Source of the DNA: a virus
Taxonomy: Duplodnaviria > Heunggongvirae > Uroviricota > Caudoviricetes
Length of the DNA: 15,105 nucleotides
Direction: 5' to 3' (one strand)
IMG/VR virus record: IMGVR_UViG_3300025466_001444
Below the pieces are notes generated by a model. It had not been told where the DNA came from. It saw only the letters and a list, made by a program, of their open reading frames with translations, and did not search any database. The position numbers were made by a program, and so were the translations under genes. This document shows, one piece after another, positions 6,174 through 14,216 of this stretch. Position 1 is the stretch's first letter. The number at the start of each line of letters is the position of its first letter.

Positions 6174-6203
6174 TTTACACCTCACAGTATCATATTTTAT
6201 ATA

Positions 6204-6278
6204 TGGTAGTCCGTGACAGGATTGAACTGCCGACCTTTCCCGTGTAAAGGGACTGCGCTACCGCTGCGCCAACGGACC
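6204..6278 (-). tRNA. trnV: tRNA-Val(UAC)
   Basis: GGTCCGT/ACGGACT acceptor stem, loop TT-TAC-AC, T-arm GGCAG-TTCAATC-CTGTC, encoded CCA. Confidence 0.92.
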
Positions 6279-6286
6279 TTATTTTT

Positions 6287-6361
6287 TGGTAGAGCATAGC
6301 GGAGTCGAACCGCTCTCAAAGGAATGAAAATCCTGTATCCTAACCGATAGACGAATGCTCC
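6287..6361 (-). tRNA. trnE: tRNA-Glu(UUC)
   Basis: GGAGCAT/ATGCTCT acceptor stem, loop TT-TTC-AT, T-loop TTCGACT, encoded CCA. Confidence 0.92.
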
Positions 6362-7306: not shown

Positions 7307-7380
7307 TGGTGCTCTCTGACAGAATCGAACTGCCAATAGATGATTACTAATCAACTGTTATACCATTTAACTAAGAGAGC
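7307..7380 (-). tRNA. trnT: tRNA-Thr(AGU), unusual A34 anticodon
   Basis: GCTCTCT/AGAGAGC acceptor stem (G1-C72, C2-G71), anticodon arm GTTGA-TTAGTAA-TCATC, TTCGATT T-loop, CCA. Confidence 0.88.
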
Positions 7381-10861: not shown

Positions 10862-10892
10862 AAAAGAGGGGATCAAAAATCCCCTCTTTTTT
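10862..10892. terminator. Bidirectional intrinsic terminator
   Basis: AAAAGAGGGGAT-CAAAA-ATCCCCTCTTTT hairpin with T-tracts on both strands, between convergent genes. Confidence 0.85.
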
Positions 10893-11094
10893 CATTAATA
10901 GTTATACGTAATAACTCTTTAATCAAACTTTTAGTTTCTTCTTCTGTAAAATGATTTAAAAATATTCTACAGGATGATTCGCACATATTAGATGCAAGAA
11001 GAAGCAAATCATTTGGCTCATCAGTCATTAAAATTTGTTGCTCAATTGGAGCAAACAATTCTGTTTTTCTTTTCAATAGTTTTTCAGTATTCAT
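10873..11094 (-). CDS. Hypothetical protein (73 aa)
   Basis: ATG 11092-11094 (MNTEKLLKRK) with AGGT upstream. The longer ORF-track version (to 11226) runs through two tRNA genes and is rejected. Confidence 0.6.
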   Translation of the reverse strand: MNTEKLLKRKTELFAPIEQQILMTDEPNDLLLLASNMCESSCRIFLNHFTEEETKSLIKELLRITINEKRGDF

Positions 11095-11109
11095 TTTATA
11101 ACCTGTTTT

Positions 11110-11187
11110 TGGAAGGGAAGATGGGAGTCGAACCCACCTAAAAAGGTTTTGCAGACCTTGCCATAACCGCTCTGGACTCACTTCCCC
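11110..11187 (-). tRNA. trnC: tRNA-Cys(GCA)
   Basis: GGGGAAG/CTTCCCT acceptor stem, U73 discriminator, AAGGT-CTGCAAA-ACCTT anticodon arm, TTCGACT T-loop, CCA. Confidence 0.9.
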
Positions 11188-11198
11188 GTATAAAGTAA

Positions 11199-11271
11199 TG
11201 GTGGAGTAAGTGGGACTCGAACCCACCTCAGATTCCTTGCAAAGGATTCCTGCTTGCCCTGAGCCTACCCC
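11199..11271 (-). tRNA. trnA: Atypical tRNA-Ala(UGC) with shortened D-arm region
   Basis: GGGGTAG/TTACTCC acceptor with G3:U70, loop TT-TGC-AA, perfect T-arm GTGGG-TTCGAGT-CCCAC, CCA. Only 16 nt lie between the acceptor and anticodon stems, and the anticodon stem has one mismatch. Confidence 0.7.
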
Positions 11272-11791
11272 AAGTATTTACATATTCTAGTACCTTATCT
11301 TCTATAAGGTATTTATGTTTGCTGTGCATGTACTGATGATGTGTCGGACATAATGGAACAAGATTTTCTGGTCTATTATCATTATGATTTTCATTTAAAT
11401 GATGAACAGCTACAACATTAACTTCTTCGCATACTAAACATTTTCTTTCATGATATCTCCAAGCAATAGTAACATATGTAGCTACCTCATCATAGTGATA
11501 TTTTTCAGATTTGGCTTTACCACCAATACTATTGGCACAACTTCTTGAACAAAAATATTGAGATTTAGAAGGGAATAAATTTTTTCTTTCTTCAACTTCA
11601 AATTCATTATTACAAGATTTACAAATAACAGAAAATTTTATGAAAGTTCCAAATCTTTTATCACTAGATTTGCTTATTTTATCATACGAAACTTTTCTAT
11701 TAGGATTTTTCTCACAATGTTTACTATGATTACCTTTTTCAGTTGTACGATTAAAATCAAATTCTTGATTGCAGTGTTTACATTTCCACAT
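11228..11791 (-). CDS. Zinc-finger HNH endonuclease (putative free-standing homing endonuclease)
   Basis: CKHC...HSKHC and CKSC...CSRSC Zn-binding motifs; C-terminal CLVC...VHHLNENHNDNRPENLVPLCPTHH HNH motif; SD GGAG. Confidence 0.85.
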   Translation of the reverse strand: MWKCKHCNQEFDFNRTTEKGNHSKHCEKNPNRKVSYDKISKSSDKRFGTFIKFSVICKSCNNEFEVEERKNLFPSKSQYFCSRSCANSIGGKAKSEKYHYDEVATYVTIAWRYHERKCLVCEEVNVVAVHHLNENHNDNRPENLVPLCPTHHQYMHSKHKYLIEDKVLEYVNTWGRLRASRNPLQGI

Positions 11792-11990: not shown

Positions 11991-13424
11991 TTAGAAAGTA
12001 TAACGCTCATTCATGACTGCCTTCATCATAATAGCCTCTGGAGTAAATTCTTCCATGCCACCAGCAAGAACTGCCTTTAGAATGGAAGGAGAAAACCCAG
12101 AAACAAGTGCTGTTCCATTCTTATCGAACTTCACAGGAACATTATCATTAGAATTGAGATTCCAGAAAACAATCTTAGGAACTTCATATCCAGACTCAGC
12201 ATACTTACGCTCAATCATTTCAATACCAGAATCATCATAAGTGGCACATGAATCAAATTGCATATCAGAAAGAATCAAAAGAATCTTTGGCATTTCAGAC
12301 TGAGGAACATCACCAGCAACTGCTACCCCAAGAATCTTATGAATAGCCTTATGCAAATCAGTATTCATAGTCCAATTAGACCCAACCATTTGCTCAATCT
12401 TTTGAACAATATTTCCCTTAAGATGAAGCAATTCAGGATTGGCAGAGAAAGTTAGAAATGTATCCTTGAACTTACCAGTGTTTTTATCAGCAAGATACAA
12501 ACCAAGAGACACAGCAACATCAAGACAAGTAGTTCCAGACTTACTATTATATCTCCCAGCAGGACAAGTCATTGAACCAGAAACATCAACCAAAGGAAGA
12601 ATGTTTGCATCACCAACATAGTTGGGAAGAGCATCCCATTGGGCAGTAATATGATCAAGATTGGACTTGTTATAATCCATACGATAATGAGTAATTACAC
12701 CCTTTAATATATCGTAAGGATACACTGCACCAGCATTGACCTTAACAGAAGCCTTCACCTCTGGATCGGTAGAAACAAGAGCAGAAGTCCACTCCTTATA
12801 CTTATCGGTATGACGGGCAAATGCCTTCTTATAACGAGTAGAAGCAACAGAAGGAACATTATTGAAATTGATATTATCCCAATCCTTAGCACACATCTGA
12901 GTTTCGACAACCTTGGTCAATTCAACCAGACGCTTACGATAGAACTTAGGAGTCCAACCAAGGTGCTTACGGAGCTTCACAGCTACTTCACCCTGACGAG
13001 GCATCCACTTTGCGCAGAGACCCATATTGTCTTCAAGAGCAATACGGATCATATAGAATGCCTGTTCCTCCATAGGAGTACCAACAAGTACAAGCAGATC
13101 ATCCCAACGACCAAGCTCAGGAACCTTACGCATCACATCAGATGCACGAACCCGATCAGTGTTTGCCATATCAACAAGGATATCACGGAAGATCTTACGT
13201 TCGCCAGCACCACCACGAACGTCACGAGCCCAAAGAGCAATACGAGTTGCAAGCTCCTTGTCCTGAACATAAGCAGCAGTCCAAGCAGGAATTACATTTT
13301 GACCACGCATAGCGCCGATTTTGAAGAAAAGTGATGTTAATGCATTACCTGTATCTTTACGAGCTTTCATTCCATTAGTTGTTCTTTCAGATTGATTTTT
13401 CACTGCTTCTGTAAAAGTAGTCAT
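11991..13424 (-). CDS. TROVE/Ro60-like protein with C-terminal vWA domain (DUF2828-like)
   Basis: WARDVRGGAGER, GRWDDL, AKWMPR, vWA MIDAS DVSGSM, LSDMQFD, FWNL and VSGFS motifs; SD AAGGAG. Confidence 0.88.
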   Translation of the reverse strand: MTTFTEAVKNQSERTTNGMKARKDTGNALTSLFFKIGAMRGQNVIPAWTAAYVQDKELATRIALWARDVRGGAGERKIFRDILVDMANTDRVRASDVMRKVPELGRWDDLLVLVGTPMEEQAFYMIRIALEDNMGLCAKWMPRQGEVAVKLRKHLGWTPKFYRKRLVELTKVVETQMCAKDWDNINFNNVPSVASTRYKKAFARHTDKYKEWTSALVSTDPEVKASVKVNAGAVYPYDILKGVITHYRMDYNKSNLDHITAQWDALPNYVGDANILPLVDVSGSMTCPAGRYNSKSGTTCLDVAVSLGLYLADKNTGKFKDTFLTFSANPELLHLKGNIVQKIEQMVGSNWTMNTDLHKAIHKILGVAVAGDVPQSEMPKILLILSDMQFDSCATYDDSGIEMIERKYAESGYEVPKIVFWNLNSNDNVPVKFDKNGTALVSGFSPSILKAVLAGGMEEFTPEAIMMKAVMNERYTF

Positions 13425-13452
13425 TTTATATCTCCTTTGCTGTTATCAATCT
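13389..13452 (-). promoter_or_regulatory. Putative translational operator: array-type stem/CAGCA motif enclosing the TROVE SD and start codon
   Basis: AGATTGAT-AA-CAGCAAAGGAG-ATATAAA-ATG...ATCAATCT-G. 8-bp stem, CAGCA at position 11 and G after the stem, as in the array units. Confidence 0.65.
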
Positions 13453-13507
13453 TAACGTTTCTTATAAATACATTATCAATCACACATAGGACCGACAATG
13501 AAATATT

Positions 13508-13536
13508 ATATTAATATACTCTCTAATTATTGTCAA
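13508..13536 (-). promoter_or_regulatory. Sigma70-like promoter for the TROVE gene
   Basis: TTGACA (13536-13531), 17-nt spacer, TAATAT (13513-13508). Confidence 0.6.
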
Positions 13537-13542
13537 CTCAAC

Positions 13543-13715
13543 AGGTTAGTCGCATCATTATGGTACACCACTCAGATTGTAATACAAGACTACAACAAGT
13601 CAGGTTATTATGCAGTCCCCGCAGGAACCACGACCATCCAGTAGGCAAATGCCTTCGCTCTACCGCCTGCGCTGTTATCACGCTTTCAAATGCAGCTGTT
13701 TGCTGTATCTAACCT
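13543..13715 (-). ncRNA. Array unit E1 (173 nt), stem/CAGCA handle with degenerate tRNA-like cargo
   Basis: AGGTTAG-ATA-CAGCAAAC...CTAACCT-G. Internal D-arm-like AGCGCAGGCGGTAGAGCG and GGTCGTGGTTC. Confidence 0.7.
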
Positions 13716-13724
13716 TTATTCAAC

Positions 13725-13783
13725 AGGGTCAACTTTGGTCTTTTGTATGCAAAAAGATTTTTTATAGTTGCTGAACTGACCCT
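13725..13783 (-). ncRNA. Array unit E2 (59 nt)
   Basis: AGGGTCA-GTT-CAGCAAC...AAGT-TGACCCT-G; apical TCTTTT/AAAAGA hairpin. Confidence 0.75.
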
Positions 13784-13799
13784 TAAACTCTAACTCATC

Positions 13800-13857
13800 A
13801 GGATTGCCCTTTGCAGGTTTGATTACAAGTCAAGTGCATATATGCTGTAACAATCCT
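13800..13857 (-). ncRNA. Array unit E3 (58 nt), carries a Thr(UGU)-type anticodon stem-loop
   Basis: AGGATTG-TTA-CAGCATA...CAATCCT-G; internal TTGA-CTTGTAA-TCAA. Confidence 0.75.
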
Positions 13858-13867
13858 AAAACTCTAC

Positions 13868-13956
13868 AGGTTTCACTTTTTGCTGGGTTTGAACCAGCTA
13901 AAAAACCACGTAAAAGGCAGTTTTTATTATCCTAGAATGTTTGCTGAAGGAAACCT
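13868..13956 (-). ncRNA. Array unit E4 (89 nt), carries a T-arm
   Basis: AGGTTTC-CTT-CAGCAAAC...GAAACCT-G; internal GCTGG-TTCAAAC-CCAGC. Confidence 0.75.
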
Positions 13957-13975
13957 AAAACTTAATACTTATAAC

Positions 13976-14111
13976 AGATTGACTTCTACTTTCATTTTTT
14001 AAAGTGGATTCTATCGAAACATAACCACTTAAATTATGCCACATGGACACAATTATACGTAACAACAAAGTTACTAGACCGATAAAATGAGGTTTGCTGG
14101 AAGGTCAATCT
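13976..14111 (-). ncRNA. Array unit E5 (136 nt), cloverleaf-like cargo
   Basis: AGATTGAC-C-TTC-CAGCAAAC...GAA-GTCAATCT-G (bulged C); inner TCATTTT/AAAATGA stem carrying three hairpins. Confidence 0.7.
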
Positions 14112-14121
14112 TAAATTTTAC

Positions 14122-14179
14122 TGGATCAACTTGGGTCTTTTTTTGCGAAAGATTTTTGTTAGGTTGCTGAACTGATCCA
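14122..14179 (-). ncRNA. Array unit E6 (58 nt), paralog of E2; first unit in transcription order
   Basis: TGGATCA-GTT-CAGCAAC...AAGT-TGATCCA-G; compensatory stem changes relative to E2. Confidence 0.75.
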
Positions 14180-14187
14180 TAAACAGT

Positions 14188-14216
14188 ATATTAAACTACT
14201 TTCTTAAAGGTGTCAA
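14188..14216 (-). promoter_or_regulatory. Sigma70-like promoter driving the RNA array
   Basis: TTGACA (14216-14211), 17-nt spacer, TAATAT (14193-14188). The predicted start (about 14180) abuts the first base of E6. Confidence 0.7.

What the first reader, a model, noticed from the sequence alone, without database searches (positions are those of the whole stretch)
13819..13837. Unit E3 displays an isolated tRNA-Thr(UGU)-type anticodon arm
Seen: GCACTTGA-CTTGTAA-TCAA, i.e. a TTGA/TCAA stem with a canonical 7-nt loop (C32 U33 UGU A37 A38) on a TGCA/TGCA lower helix. There is no D-arm, T-arm or CCA. It resembles the anticodon arm of the phage's own tRNA-Thr(AGU) (TTGA-TTAGTAA-TCA). Inference: an anticodon-loop decoy for a tRNA-Thr-cleaving host nuclease, or a substrate mimic for ThrRS or t6A machinery.
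Basis: partly seen in the sequence, partly recalled or inferred. Interest (0 to 1): 0.7.

Follow-up and report, generated by a model that had tools for sequence, protein, structure and literature searches.

The report
Anticodon-arm mimic on phage Y-like RNA
The hairpin is real and conserved: it copies the anticodon loop of a threonine tRNA and is carried by a small RNA whose gene lies just upstream of a phage gene for a Ro60-shaped RNA-binding protein, so related phages appear to display different tRNA anticodon loops on one shared RNA "handle", possibly as bait for host enzymes that attack or modify tRNAs.

Summary
Observation confirmed. On the minus strand, 13837-13819 reads GCAC-UUGA-CUUGUAA-UCAA. 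It lies in a 58-nt unit (13857-13800), the third from the gene of six tandem units between a sigma-70-like promoter and a gene whose product has a predicted Ro60 fold (DUF2828+vWA).

Every unit has a 7-bp terminal stem followed by a UUACAGCAA-type motif (the "handle"). E3 adds only a two-helix arm capped by a canonical tRNA-Thr(UGU) anticodon loop.

- Orthologues in seven other viral contigs keep YUUGUAA; one has a compensatory stem change.
- Across 14-19 homologous arms, 7-8 of 8 base pairs covary.
- One scaffold carries UCU, UUU or GCU in other phages. Other units hold the same loop between a D arm and a T arm.
- Displayed anticodons are strongly biased to N36=U/A with A37.

Interpretation partly supported. 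It is an anticodon-arm mimic, but as cargo of a Y-RNA-like RNA that is probably bound by the Ro60-like protein. A decoy role against anticodon nucleases is plausible: E3 carries the U36AAUC|A41 site that PARIS AriB cleaves. It is untested, and that site is not enriched across cargo arms.

This scan has already reported the handle family, and its likeness to Dictyostelium Class I RNAs, in at least 30 other genomes. I found no published description.

The parts
13819..13837 (-). The finding: upper stem UUGA/UCAA with the 7-nt loop CUUGUAA (tRNA numbering C32 U33 U34 G35 U36 A37 A38), plus part of the lower helix.
   Evidence: Sequence read. The hairpin is in the MFE fold. The loop is conserved in orthologues.
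13812..13838 (-). The whole cargo arm: 3-bp lower helix UGC/GCA, one unpaired A (plus a C.A mismatch), the 4-5-bp anticodon-like stem, the 7-nt loop, and a 3-nt bulge ACC on the 3' side.
   Evidence: Alignments A3 and A4 with pair counts. The lower helix covaries: UGC/GCA, UGG/CCA, UAC/GUA, AAC/GUU.
13800..13857 (-). Unit E3, a 58-nt predicted small RNA. Handle 5' strand AGGAUUG (13857-13851), motif UUACAGCA (13850-13843), cargo arm, handle 3' strand CAAUCCU (13806-13800), followed by G.
   Evidence: Coordinates. Orthologues are in L003, L004, L006, L007, L011 and L013/L014. Handle-stem test.
13543..14179 (-). Array of six tandem handle RNAs: E6 14179-14122, E5 14111-13976, E4 13956-13868 (T-arm cargo), E3 13857-13800, E2 13783-13725, E1 13715-13543 (tRNA-like body).
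   Evidence: In 128 of 141 distinct 5' motifs in related loci there is a perfect 7-bp partner downstream, against 3.75 for permuted stems.
14188..14216 (-). Sigma-70-like promoter (TTGACA, 17 nt, TAATAT) directly upstream of the array.
   Evidence: 10 of 12 matches. It is repeated at 13508-13536 (family D4).
13508..13536 (-). Second copy of the same promoter, between the array and the Ro60-like gene.
11991..13424 (-). Gene for a 477-aa Ro60-like protein (Pfam DUF2828 + DUF7788, phrog_850 'RNA-binding protein'), the presumed binding partner of the handle.
   Evidence: Pfam and PHROGs. The AlphaFold model has pLDDT 78. The top 13 Foldseek PDB hits are all Ro60/TROVE proteins, E 3e-8 to 3e-5, TM about 0.55.
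13389..13452 (-). Seventh handle copy, enclosing the ribosome-binding site and start codon of the Ro60-like gene.
   Evidence: No matching copy lies this close to the start codon in the closest relatives (L002-L011).
7307..7380 (-).
   Evidence: It is conserved in L003, L004, L006 and L007.

Best explanation
E3 is one gene in an array of six small non-coding RNAs, probably transcribed from one promoter and cut into pieces of about 60 nt.

Each RNA has a constant handle: a 7-bp terminal stem, the single-stranded motif UUACAGCAA, an A-rich 3' strand, and a G after the stem. I infer that this handle is the binding site of the Ro60-like ring protein encoded just downstream, as Y RNAs bind Ro60.

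The variable middle is cargo made of tRNA parts. In E3 the cargo is an anticodon arm alone, bearing the exact loop of tRNA-Thr(UGU).

The most likely role is to present this loop as bait or tether for a factor that reads anticodon loops. In a lytic phage with a large tRNA island, the favoured candidate is a host anticodon-arm nuclease that the RNA would soak up or mark. The second candidate is a tRNA-modifying or repair enzyme.

Shown here: the structure, its conservation, the anticodon swaps, the linkage to the Ro60-like gene, and the predicted fold of that protein.

Inferred, not shown: expression, processing, protein binding, and the bait function.
For: Structure and conservation:
- E3 orthologues retain the loop, and one has a compensatory stem change.
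- 7 of 8 (A3) and 8 of 8 (A4) pairs covary, far above shuffled and slid controls.

tRNA origin of the cargo:
- Units carry D arm + anticodon arm + T arm in tRNA order inside the handle (L060:2598, L054:763, L043:367, L059:547). Others carry arm + T arm (L021:2376, L039:2862).
- Rfam tRNA and YrlA give sub-threshold hits inside sister units.

Anticodon swaps:
- The identical scaffold UAC-A-UUUGA-CUNNNAA-UCAAA-ACC-GUA carries UCU, UUU or GCU.
- Positions 33, 36, 37 and 38 are invariant and 34-35 vary. Rows L093-L167 were found with a pattern that fixes 32-33 and 37-38; in A3, which has no such rows, 33 and 36-38 are also invariant.

Bias in what is displayed:
- Of 67 Y32-U33-R37 loops on stems of 5 bp or more, in 227 handle-defined units, N36 is U in 46, A in 14, G in 6 and C in 1.
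- Real tRNAs of the same contigs have U 121, A 96, C 94, G 75 (binomial 3e-9).

Linkage to the protein:
- 12 of 22 independent contigs with handle+arm units hold a Ro-like gene in the fetched stretch, against 1 of 58 chance pattern hits (Fisher 1e-7).
- The same handle sits beside the gene in Listeria phage P100, E. coli phage dune and mycobacteriophage MsGreen.

Protein: the model's best PDB matches are all Ro60.

Published context:
- Three highly transcribed regions lie upstream of the Ro-like gene of a P100-like phage (PMC12282133).
- The Ro60-like gp130 of Bas63 counters the Ppl defence (PMC11482910).
- AriB of PARIS cleaves tRNA Lys(UUU), Thr(UGU) and Asn(GUU) at U36AAUC|A41 (PMC12409363). 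E3 reads U36-A-A-U-C-A41 exactly.
Against:
- The hairpin is thermodynamically marginal on its own: 4 A/U-rich pairs, z = -1.17, absent from the centroid.
- The AriB-type U39-C40 element is not enriched among cargo arms (30% against 36% in real phage tRNAs). It is simply typical of real tRNA-Thr(UGU).
- Cargo stems are not closer to same-anticodon tRNAs than to other tRNAs.
- The host and its defence systems are unknown.
- Relatives with an E3 orthologue also carry a normal tRNA-Thr(UGU), so the arm is not a replacement.
- The N36 bias is only weakly significant when counted by anticodon kind (8 of 9, p 0.045). Part of the census comes from contigs found with a loop-containing pattern.
Confidence: 0.5

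Rival explanations
1. Substrate or tether for tRNA anticodon-loop modification or repair enzymes rather than a nuclease decoy. The Ro-like particle would bring t6A37 (TsaBDE/TsaC), i6A37 (MiaA) or wobble-U enzymes, or RNA-repair enzymes, to itself, or titrate them. This would parallel YrlA, which is modified by tRNA enzymes, and Y RNA, which tethers PNPase.
For: - Displayed loops are almost all U36-A37 (t6A class) or A36-A37-A38 (i6A class).
- YrlA is a substrate of tRNA-modifying enzymes (PMC4201824).
- The Ro-like gene lies about 1.3 kb from an RtcB ligase gene in Listeria phage P100.
Against: - No RtcB or T4-type RNA ligase lies on this 44.7-kb fragment, though only 22% of the genome is held.
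- No modification data exist.
- The bias towards A/U at position 36 could partly reflect the A/T-rich composition of these RNAs.
Confidence: 0.2
2. The loop is a structural or protein-contact element with no tRNA-related target, for instance a U-turn heptaloop that contacts the Ro-like protein itself or another unit. The likeness to anticodon loops would then be inherited from a tRNA ancestor without present meaning.
For: - Sister units E2 and E6 carry 7-nt loops that are not anticodon-like (UGCAUAC, CGCAAAA) on similar hairpins.
- Many handle RNAs in Felix-O1-like and P100-like phages have no canonical anticodon loop.
- Cargo stems bear no specific relation to cognate tRNAs.
Against: - Conservation follows the anticodon-loop rule: 32, 33, 37 and 38 are fixed and 34-35 free.
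- The triplets are exchanged on an otherwise identical scaffold.
- Stems are mostly exactly 5 bp.
- The arm occurs in tRNA order with D and T arms.
Confidence: 0.2
3. A ThrRS-specific mimic, like the E. coli thrS operator, that titrates or regulates threonyl-tRNA synthetase.
For: E3 has G35 and U36, the ThrRS anticodon identity bases (established knowledge of the thrS operator and of tRNA-Thr identity, recalled and not tested here).
Against: Homologous units display at least ten different anticodons, so the family is not Thr-specific. E3 is not in an mRNA leader.
Confidence: 0.05
4. Not an RNA gene at all: the repeats would be DNA-level elements such as protein-binding sites or recombination repeats, or chance hairpins in an A/T-rich spacer.
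For: There is no direct expression evidence for this phage. The fold z-score of E3 alone is not significant.
Against: - Compensatory changes preserve pairing in both helices and in the terminal stem.
- Units are strand-specific and co-oriented with tRNA genes.
- A promoter precedes the array.
- Abundant transcripts are reported from the region upstream of the Ro-like gene of a P100-like phage (PMC12282133), where P100 carries three handle units.
Confidence: 0.05

Closest known systems
Bacterial and phage Y RNAs of the YrlA type bound by Ro60/Rsr (Rfam RF02553; Chen et al. 2014, PMC4201824; Thermus phage phiLo Ro60 with Yrl1/Yrl2, PMC12135203)
   Same: - Small RNAs encoded next to a Ro60-fold protein gene, often several per locus.
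- The 5' and 3' ends pair in a terminal stem next to a conserved unpaired motif.
- The variable part mimics tRNA.
- Sister units in related contigs score as YrlA at 39-40 bits, E about 3e-5.
   Different: - The protein is the DUF2828 branch, not Pfam TROVE.
- The motif is UUACAGCAA, not GNCGAA/CGAA.
- YrlA keeps T, D and acceptor-like arms and lacks the anticodon arm. E3 keeps only the anticodon arm.
- No Rfam hit covers E3.
Dictyostelium Class I RNAs (Rfam RF01414; Kjellin et al. 2021, PMC7919456)
   Same: - Length 42-65 nt; E3 is 58 nt.
- A short covarying terminal stem beginning (A)AG and ending C-UG(U).
- The motif CCUUACAGCAA directly after the 5' strand, an A-rich 3' side and a variable middle.
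- RF01414 is the best Rfam hit in the gap (23.9 and 17.8 bits on E4 and E2; E 8e-4 per genome).
- Real DdR sequences read GUUGAC-CUUACAGCAA...GUCAAC-UG. Window unit E5 reads AGAUUGAC-CUUCCAGCAA...GUCAAUCU-G.
   Different: - All phage hits fall below the gathering score of 41.5, and E3 itself gets no hit.
- Class I RNAs are eukaryotic, have a DUSE promoter, and are reported as unique to Dictyostelia.
- Their known partner is the RRM protein Rnp1A, and no tRNA-like cargo is described.
- Whether they bind a DUF2828 protein is unknown, and I could not test it.
thrS translational operator of E. coli (anticodon-arm mimics of tRNA-Thr bound by ThrRS); recalled from established literature, not checked here
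   Same: An isolated hairpin that copies the anticodon loop of tRNA-Thr outside a tRNA.
   Different: The operator sits in an mRNA leader and represses translation of one gene. E3 is a free-standing unit on a Ro-type handle, and its homologues display many other anticodons.
Phage tRNAs that neutralise tRNA-targeting defences (T5 tRNAs against PARIS AriB, PMC12409363 and PMC11464382; anticodon-loop variants, van den Berg et al. 2023, as cited in PMC11482910)
   Same: - Phage-encoded RNAs bearing the anticodon loops of Lys(UUU), Thr(UGU) and Asn(GUU), which are among the anticodons seen on handle RNAs.
- E3 carries the U36AAUC|A41 cleavage context.
- The authors raise the possibility that viral tRNAs also act as competitive inhibitors.
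   Different: Those are complete, functional tRNAs that replace cut host tRNAs and carry escape mutations. E3 cannot be aminoacylated and keeps the sensitive-type sequence. No nuclease is known for this phage's host.

Membership tests
Bona fide tRNA | Cloverleaf with an acceptor stem plus discriminator/CCA, a D arm, an anticodon arm and a T arm. | tested here: not met
   ARAGORN and Rfam tRNA find nothing in 13425-14190. The 58-nt unit holds only the handle and one arm.
tRNA anticodon arm (as a motif) | 7-nt loop with pyrimidine 32, U33, purine 37, closed by a stem of about 5 bp. | tested here: met
   The loop is C-U-UGU-A-A. E3 has 4 pairs plus a C.A mismatch. Homologues mostly have exactly 5 bp (16 of 22). 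Covariation is shown.
YrlA / Y RNA (RF02553) | Encoded next to a gene for a Ro60-fold protein. | tested here: met
   The gene 11991-13424 starts 119 nt after the last unit of the array. The top 13 Foldseek PDB hits of its model are all Ro60/TROVE.
YrlA / Y RNA (RF02553) | Score at or above the Rfam gathering threshold (69 bits), with the GNCGAA-type Ro-binding motif. | tested here: not met
   No YrlA hit in the gap at E <= 10. Sister units elsewhere reach only 23-40 bits. The motif here is CAGCAA.
YrlA / Y RNA (RF02553) | tRNA-like domain with T and D arms. | tested here: not met
   E3 has neither arm. E4 has a T arm, and units in L003, L011 and L028 have T and D arms.
YrlA / Y RNA (RF02553) | Physical binding to the Ro60 orthologue. 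| not testable with these tools
   This needs EMSA or immunoprecipitation.
Dictyostelium Class I RNA (RF01414) | Length of 42-65 nt, with a short terminal stem that covaries. | tested here: met
   E3 is 58 nt. Terminal-stem test: 128 of 141 against 3.75 in the control, with 40 different stem sequences.
Dictyostelium Class I RNA (RF01414) | 11-nt motif CCUUACAGCAA next to the 5' stem, with invariant T3, C6, C9, A10 and A11 (PMC7919456). | tested here: inconclusive
   E3 reads G-UUACAGCA-U, matching T3, C6, C9 and A10 but not A11. The family consensus is gTtCAGCAA, with C 100%, G 100%, C 100%, A 100% and A 81% (the regex fixed C-[AC]-G-C-A).
Dictyostelium Class I RNA (RF01414) | Score at or above the Rfam gathering threshold (41.5 bits). 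| tested here: not met
   The best hits in the window are 23.9 and 17.8 bits, on E4 and E2, with none on E3. Control genomes also give hits at E <= 10.
CAGCAA-handle RNAs beside DUF2828 Ro60-like genes (provisional family of this scan, unpublished) | 7-bp terminal stem, 3 nt, then C(A/C)GCA(A); a G after the 3' strand; located within a few kb of a DUF2828 gene, usually among tRNA genes. | tested here: met
   E3 has AGGAUUG, UUA, CAGCA ... CAAUCCU-G. The spacing is 3 nt in 136 of 137 units, and the G after the stem is 100% without being required. Gene linkage.
Decoy substrate of an anticodon-arm nuclease (for example PARIS AriB) | Carries the nuclease's recognition and cleavage context. | tested here: inconclusive
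   E3 has U36-A-A-U-C-A41, equal to the published AriB site (PMC12409363). The element is not enriched across cargo arms, and it is common in real tRNA-Thr(UGU).
Decoy substrate of an anticodon-arm nuclease (for example PARIS AriB) | Is cut by, or competes for, a nuclease present in the host. | not testable with these tools
   The host is unknown, and a biochemical assay is needed.

The most novel reading that the evidence does not exclude
Phages use a Ro60-like ring plus a set of interchangeable handle RNAs as a display library of anticodon loops, mostly of the ANN-decoding, t6A37 class (Lys, Thr, Arg, Asn, Ile, Ser). These would capture or inhibit host tRNA-targeting immune nucleases of the PARIS/OLD, PrrC or colicin-like kinds, and possibly Ppl. 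That would be an RNA-based counter-defence distinct from supplying replacement tRNAs. The same handle in Dictyostelium Class I RNAs would then point to an ancient, unrecognised Ro-like ribonucleoprotein shared by phages and eukaryotes.
Probability: 0.2. Interest if true: 0.85.

Novelty: new variant of a known kind. Interest (0 to 1): 0.62.

Why it matters
tRNA cleavage is now recognised as a common bacterial defence, and phage tRNA islands as the answer to it. If small RNAs that carry only an anticodon arm on a Ro60-binding handle act as bait, that would be a second, cheaper counter-measure.

It would also give the first concrete function to the Ro60-like proteins found in hundreds of phages, including Felix O1, P100/K-like, T4-like, Campylobacter phages and mycobacteriophages.

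The swapped-anticodon series offers a ready-made specificity experiment. The handle's likeness to Dictyostelium Class I RNAs offers a testable partner hypothesis for an orphan eukaryotic RNA class.

Even if the bait idea fails, these units are unannotated RNA genes that genome annotation currently misses.

Tried and rejected
- **Rfam on the window and on the gap alone:** no family covers E3. Only sub-threshold RF01414 hits fall on neighbouring units.
- **blastn of the gap against isolate phages:** no match, so homologues had to be reached through the protein.
- **PDB by sequence:** no significant hit. The Ro60 relation appears only at fold level.
- **Single-sequence folding of the whole gap and of E3:** z-scores of -0.86 and -1.17, so thermodynamics alone do not support the structure.
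- **Idea that E3's arm is a recent copy of the phage tRNA-Thr arm:** rejected. Cargo stems are no closer to same-anticodon tRNAs than to others.
- **Idea that cargo arms are enriched for the AriB element U39-C40(-A41):** rejected as a general rule, 30% against 36%.
- **Idea that the mimic replaces a missing tRNA-Thr(UGU):** rejected. L002, L003, L004 and L013 carry a real one.
- **Neighbouring FAD oxidoreductase as a possible MnmC-like tRNA enzyme:** rejected. It matches D-amino-acid dehydrogenase.
- **RtcB and T4 Rnl1 searches on the phage fragment:** nothing found, but uninformative. Only 22% of the genome is held, and the Rnl1 control rang nowhere.
- **Papers:** Avesson et al. 2011, on the Class I RNA-binding proteins, is not held. 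No paper found links DUF2828, Ro60 and Class I RNAs.
- **MAFFT on whole units (A2):** it misaligned the 3' ends, so pair counts were made on the arms only (A3, A4).
Full report
**1. The observation**

In tRNA numbering:
- stem U28-U29-G30-A31 pairs with U39-C40-A41-A42, and C27 faces A43;
- the loop is C32-U33-U34-G35-U36-A37-A38;
- below it, UGC (13838-13836) pairs with GCA (13814-13812).

ARAGORN and Rfam find no tRNA in the 766-nt gap 13425-14190, so this is an arm without a tRNA.

On its own the hairpin is weak. It is in the minimum-energy fold of the 58-nt unit but not in the centroid, and the z-score against shuffles is -1.17. The case therefore rests on comparison with related sequences.

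**2. Where it sits**

All genes in this part of the window are on the minus strand. The gap lies directly upstream of a 477-aa ORF (11991-13424) that matches Pfam DUF2828 + DUF7788 and PHROG 850 "RNA-binding protein".

Sequence searches of the PDB give nothing significant. An AlphaFold model built on 38 homologues has pLDDT 78 and pTM 0.75. Its 13 best Foldseek PDB matches are all Ro60/TROVE proteins: Xenopus and human Ro60, Deinococcus Rsr, and Thermus phage phiLo Ro60. E-values run from 3e-8 to 3e-5, TM is about 0.55, and the alignments span most of the length.

The gap holds six tandem units:
- E6: 14179-14122
- E5: 14111-13976
- E4: 13956-13868
- E3: 13857-13800
- E2: 13783-13725
- E1: 13715-13543

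Each unit begins with (U)UUAGG and has a terminal stem of 7 bp (8 bp in E5). Three nucleotides follow the stem (four in E5), then C-A-G-C-A-A. Each ends with the complementary strand followed by G.

A sigma-70-like promoter (TTGACA, 17 nt, TAATAT) precedes the array at 14216-14188. A second copy precedes the protein gene at 13536-13508.

E3 consists of the handle plus the arm in question and nothing else.

**3. The handle is a real, selected RNA structure**

The protein brought in 80 related viral contigs. I located 5' motifs by sequence only. Of 141 distinct motifs, 128 have a perfect 7-bp Watson-Crick partner within 305 nt downstream. Permuting the stems among motifs gives 3.75 on average and 7 at most.

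Forty different stem sequences occur. The spacing to CAGCA is 3 nt in 136 of 137 units. The G after the stem is invariant although the search did not require it.

The same design lies beside the Ro-like gene in three distant isolates:
- Listeria phage P100 has three units directly upstream of gp165.
- E. coli phage dune (Felixounavirus) has four units among the tRNA genes.
- Mycobacteriophage MsGreen has three units, one of them YrlA-like.

**4. The arm is conserved and covaries**

I found E3 orthologues through their handle sequence, not their arm. They are present in L003, L004, L006, L007, L011 and L013/L014.

All of them keep YUUGUAA. L003, L004 and L006 have U32. L011 has the stem UUGU/ACAA, a change on both sides.

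On 14 homologous arms (A3), 7 of 8 pairs show double-sided changes. Cells paired are 82% against 62.6% in shuffles. The covariation score is 0.50 against 0.148, and 0 of 500 shuffles reach it. Sliding the partners gives at most 0.087.

The lower helix covaries as UGC/GCA, UGG/CCA, UAC/GUA and AAC/GUU. This rules out the alternative pairing with the CAGCA motif that appears in the E3 minimum-energy fold.

A 19-arm set that includes contigs from an independent pattern scan gives 8 of 8 covarying pairs. Those extra rows were selected for pairing, so only the variety of pair types counts there.

A sequence-only test also supports the arm. Anticodon-type heptamers are flanked by stems of 4 bp or more in 22 of 49 cases inside units and in 57 of 874 outside, where many are real tRNAs (Fisher 1.5e-12). 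In 16 of the 22 the stem is exactly 5 bp.

**5. The loop behaves as an anticodon loop**

Within the aligned arms, U33, U36, A37 and A38 are invariant, while positions 34-35 vary. Rows L093-L167 were found with a pattern that fixes 32-33 and 37-38; in A3, which has no such rows, 33 and 36-38 are also invariant.

The scaffold UAC-A-UUUGA-CU-NNN-AA-UCAAA-ACC-GUA carries UCU in L093, UUU in L116 and GCU in L135, with no other difference. Related scaffolds carry GAU, CUU, GUU and UGA.

In the 80 protein-anchored contigs the recurrent loops are:
- CUUGAAA (7 distinct units)
- C/UUUGUAA (8)
- CUUCUAA (5)
- C/UUUAUAA (4)
- CUGAAAA (2)
- single cases of UUU, GUU, GUA, GCA and CAU

Y32-U33-R37 loops, a class that also takes in T-loops, number 54 against 5.3 +/- 2.2 in shuffled interiors.

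Several larger units place the same loop in tRNA order between a D arm and a T arm inside the handle, for example L060:2598-2688, L054:763, L043:367 and L059:547. Others carry arm plus T arm (L021:2376, L039:2862, L044:2860). Others are permuted T-then-D bodies that score as YrlA at 39-40 bits.

The cargo set is therefore a series of tRNA parts, and E3 is the anticodon-arm-only member.

**6. What is displayed**

In 227 handle-defined units, 67 Y32-U33-R37 loops sit on stems of 5 bp or more. N36 is U in 46, A in 14, G in 6 and C in 1. The 386 distinct real tRNAs of the same contigs have U 121, A 96, C 94 and G 75. The binomial tail is 3e-9.

Two caveats apply. The units are not independent, and half of the contigs were found with a loop-containing pattern. 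Counted by recurrent anticodon kind, the bias is 8 of 9 (p 0.045). It is real but should be re-measured.

The favoured class is ANN decoders with A37, which in bacteria carry t6A (established knowledge). UNN decoders with A36-A37-A38 come second.

**7. Tests of the functional ideas**

(a) Copy of the phage's own tRNA-Thr? The arm of tRNA-Thr(AGU) at 7307-7380 is similar, but so are unrelated arms. Cargo stems match same-anticodon tRNAs no better than others.

(b) Replacement for a lost tRNA? No. Relatives with E3 orthologues carry a true tRNA-Thr(UGU).

(c) Nuclease bait? AriB of PARIS cuts E. coli tRNA Lys(UUU), Thr(UGU) and Asn(GUU) between positions 40 and 41, in the context U36AAUC|A41. 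Its authors suggest that viral tRNAs might also act as competitors (PMC12409363).
- E3 has exactly U36-A-A-U-C-A41.
- L011's orthologue has U39->A, the change called Mut1 in T5 tRNA-Lys.
- This is a lead only. U39-C40 is no more frequent in cargo arms (30%) than in real phage tRNAs (36%), and it is typical of true tRNA-Thr(UGU) (67%).

(d) Anti-defence context. The Ro60-like gp130 of Bas63, a Felixounavirus, counters the Ppl system. Its authors guessed that some neighbouring "tRNAs" are Y RNAs (PMC11482910).

(e) Expression. None is available for this phage. A P100-like phage shows three very abundant transcripts upstream of its Ro-like gene (PMC12282133), and P100 has three handle units directly upstream of its Ro-like gene.

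**8. Comparison with what is known**

The closest described system is Ro60/Rsr with YrlA-type Y RNAs, including those of mycobacteriophages (PMC4201824). Shared features are adjacency to a Ro60-fold gene, a terminal stem plus conserved unpaired motif, and tRNA mimicry.

The differences are:
- the DUF2828 protein branch;
- a CAGCAA motif rather than a CGAA motif;
- the anticodon arm, which YrlA lacks, serving as the only cargo.

The handle closely resembles Dictyostelium Class I RNAs. RF01414 is the best Rfam family in the gap (23.9 and 17.8 bits, below the gathering score of 41.5). Real DdR sequences share the AG...stem, CUUACAGCAA, the A-rich 3' side and the ...stem-UG design.

Kjellin et al. 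report Class I RNAs as unique to Dictyostelia. I found no paper linking them to Ro60 or DUF2828. I could not test whether Dictyostelium has a DUF2828 partner.

**9. Relation to earlier notes of this scan**

The handle family, its link to DUF2828 and the Class I likeness have already been reported by this scan in at least 30 other genomes. I reached the same reading independently before looking.

This report adds four things:
- a formal test of the E3 arm;
- the anticodon-swap series on one scaffold;
- the composite units in tRNA order;
- the census and bias of displayed anticodons, with negative results on stem derivation and on the AriB element.

**10. Verdict**

The functional reading is plausible but unproven.

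I file the finding as a new variant of a known kind: Ro60/Y-RNA tRNA mimicry.

Approximate odds:
- E3 is an expressed handle RNA bound by the Ro-like protein: about 0.8.
- Its loop is read as an anticodon loop by some partner: about 0.55.
- That partner is a defence nuclease: about 0.25.

Noticed in passing
window 7307-7380 (-); L003:4501-4576, L004:4504-4579, L006:2978-3053, L007:5879-5954: A tRNA-Thr with anticodon AGU (A34) is conserved in this phage clade, followed directly by tRNA-Leu(CAA) in L003, L004, L006 and L007. A34 is unusual outside tRNA-Arg(ACG) in bacteria. Its stem equals that of the tRNA-Thr(UGU) of L002, which suggests a U34->A change.
   Followed up: partly
window 11113-11187 (-) and 11199-11271 (-): Rfam gives tRNA (36.6 bits) and tRNA/tmRNA-like (21.8 bits) hits that ARAGORN does not call. 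They overlap the ORF 10873-11226 and abut an HNH endonuclease gene (11228-11791, phrog_1271). The ORF may be spurious, and the tRNA genes may flank a homing endonuclease.
   Followed up: no
window 13389-13452 (-): A seventh handle copy (AGAUUGA...CAGCAAAGGAG...AUG...UCAAUCU) encloses the ribosome-binding site and start codon of the Ro60-like gene, which could allow autoregulation. No matching copy lies this close to the start codon in the closest relatives (L002-L011).
   Followed up: partly
window 13501-13536 and 14181-14216: The two promoters belong to a 36-nt direct repeat of 72% identity. The array is therefore bracketed by duplicated promoter segments.
   Followed up: partly
window 13471-13500 (-): A terminator-like hairpin (11 pairs, then a U-rich tail) lies between the second promoter and the ribosome-binding site of the Ro60-like gene, that is, in its 5' leader.
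   Followed up: no
L081 (Listeria phage P100) 3662-3717, 3750-3805, 3819-3926: Three handle RNAs lie directly upstream of gp165 (the Ro-like gene), and an RtcB ligase gene lies about 1.3 kb downstream. The number and general position fit the three unexplained, highly transcribed regions reported for the P100-like phage CKA15 (PMC12282133).
   Followed up: partly
L060:2598-2688; L036:2670-2733: These units contain almost a whole tRNA body (D arm, anticodon arm, T arm). Its place in the handle is that of a tRNA whose acceptor stem has been replaced by the 7-bp handle stem plus the CAGCAA insert. L036 scores 35 bits on Rfam tRNA over model positions 5-66.
   Followed up: partly
L003:25-102, L011:1703-1776, L028:3695-3766, L035:1343-1417 and 2398-2469: ARAGORN calls tRNAs with anticodons UCA and CUA (labelled SeC/Pyl) in several related phages. 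They could be suppressor tRNAs.
   Followed up: no
L013:6087-6193 (-): An Rfam hit to the Rhizobiales sRNA Atu_At1 lies above its gathering score (70.8 against 60 bits) in a phage contig. It abuts the 5' end of the opposite-strand tRNA-Ser gene at 6203-6292.
   Followed up: no
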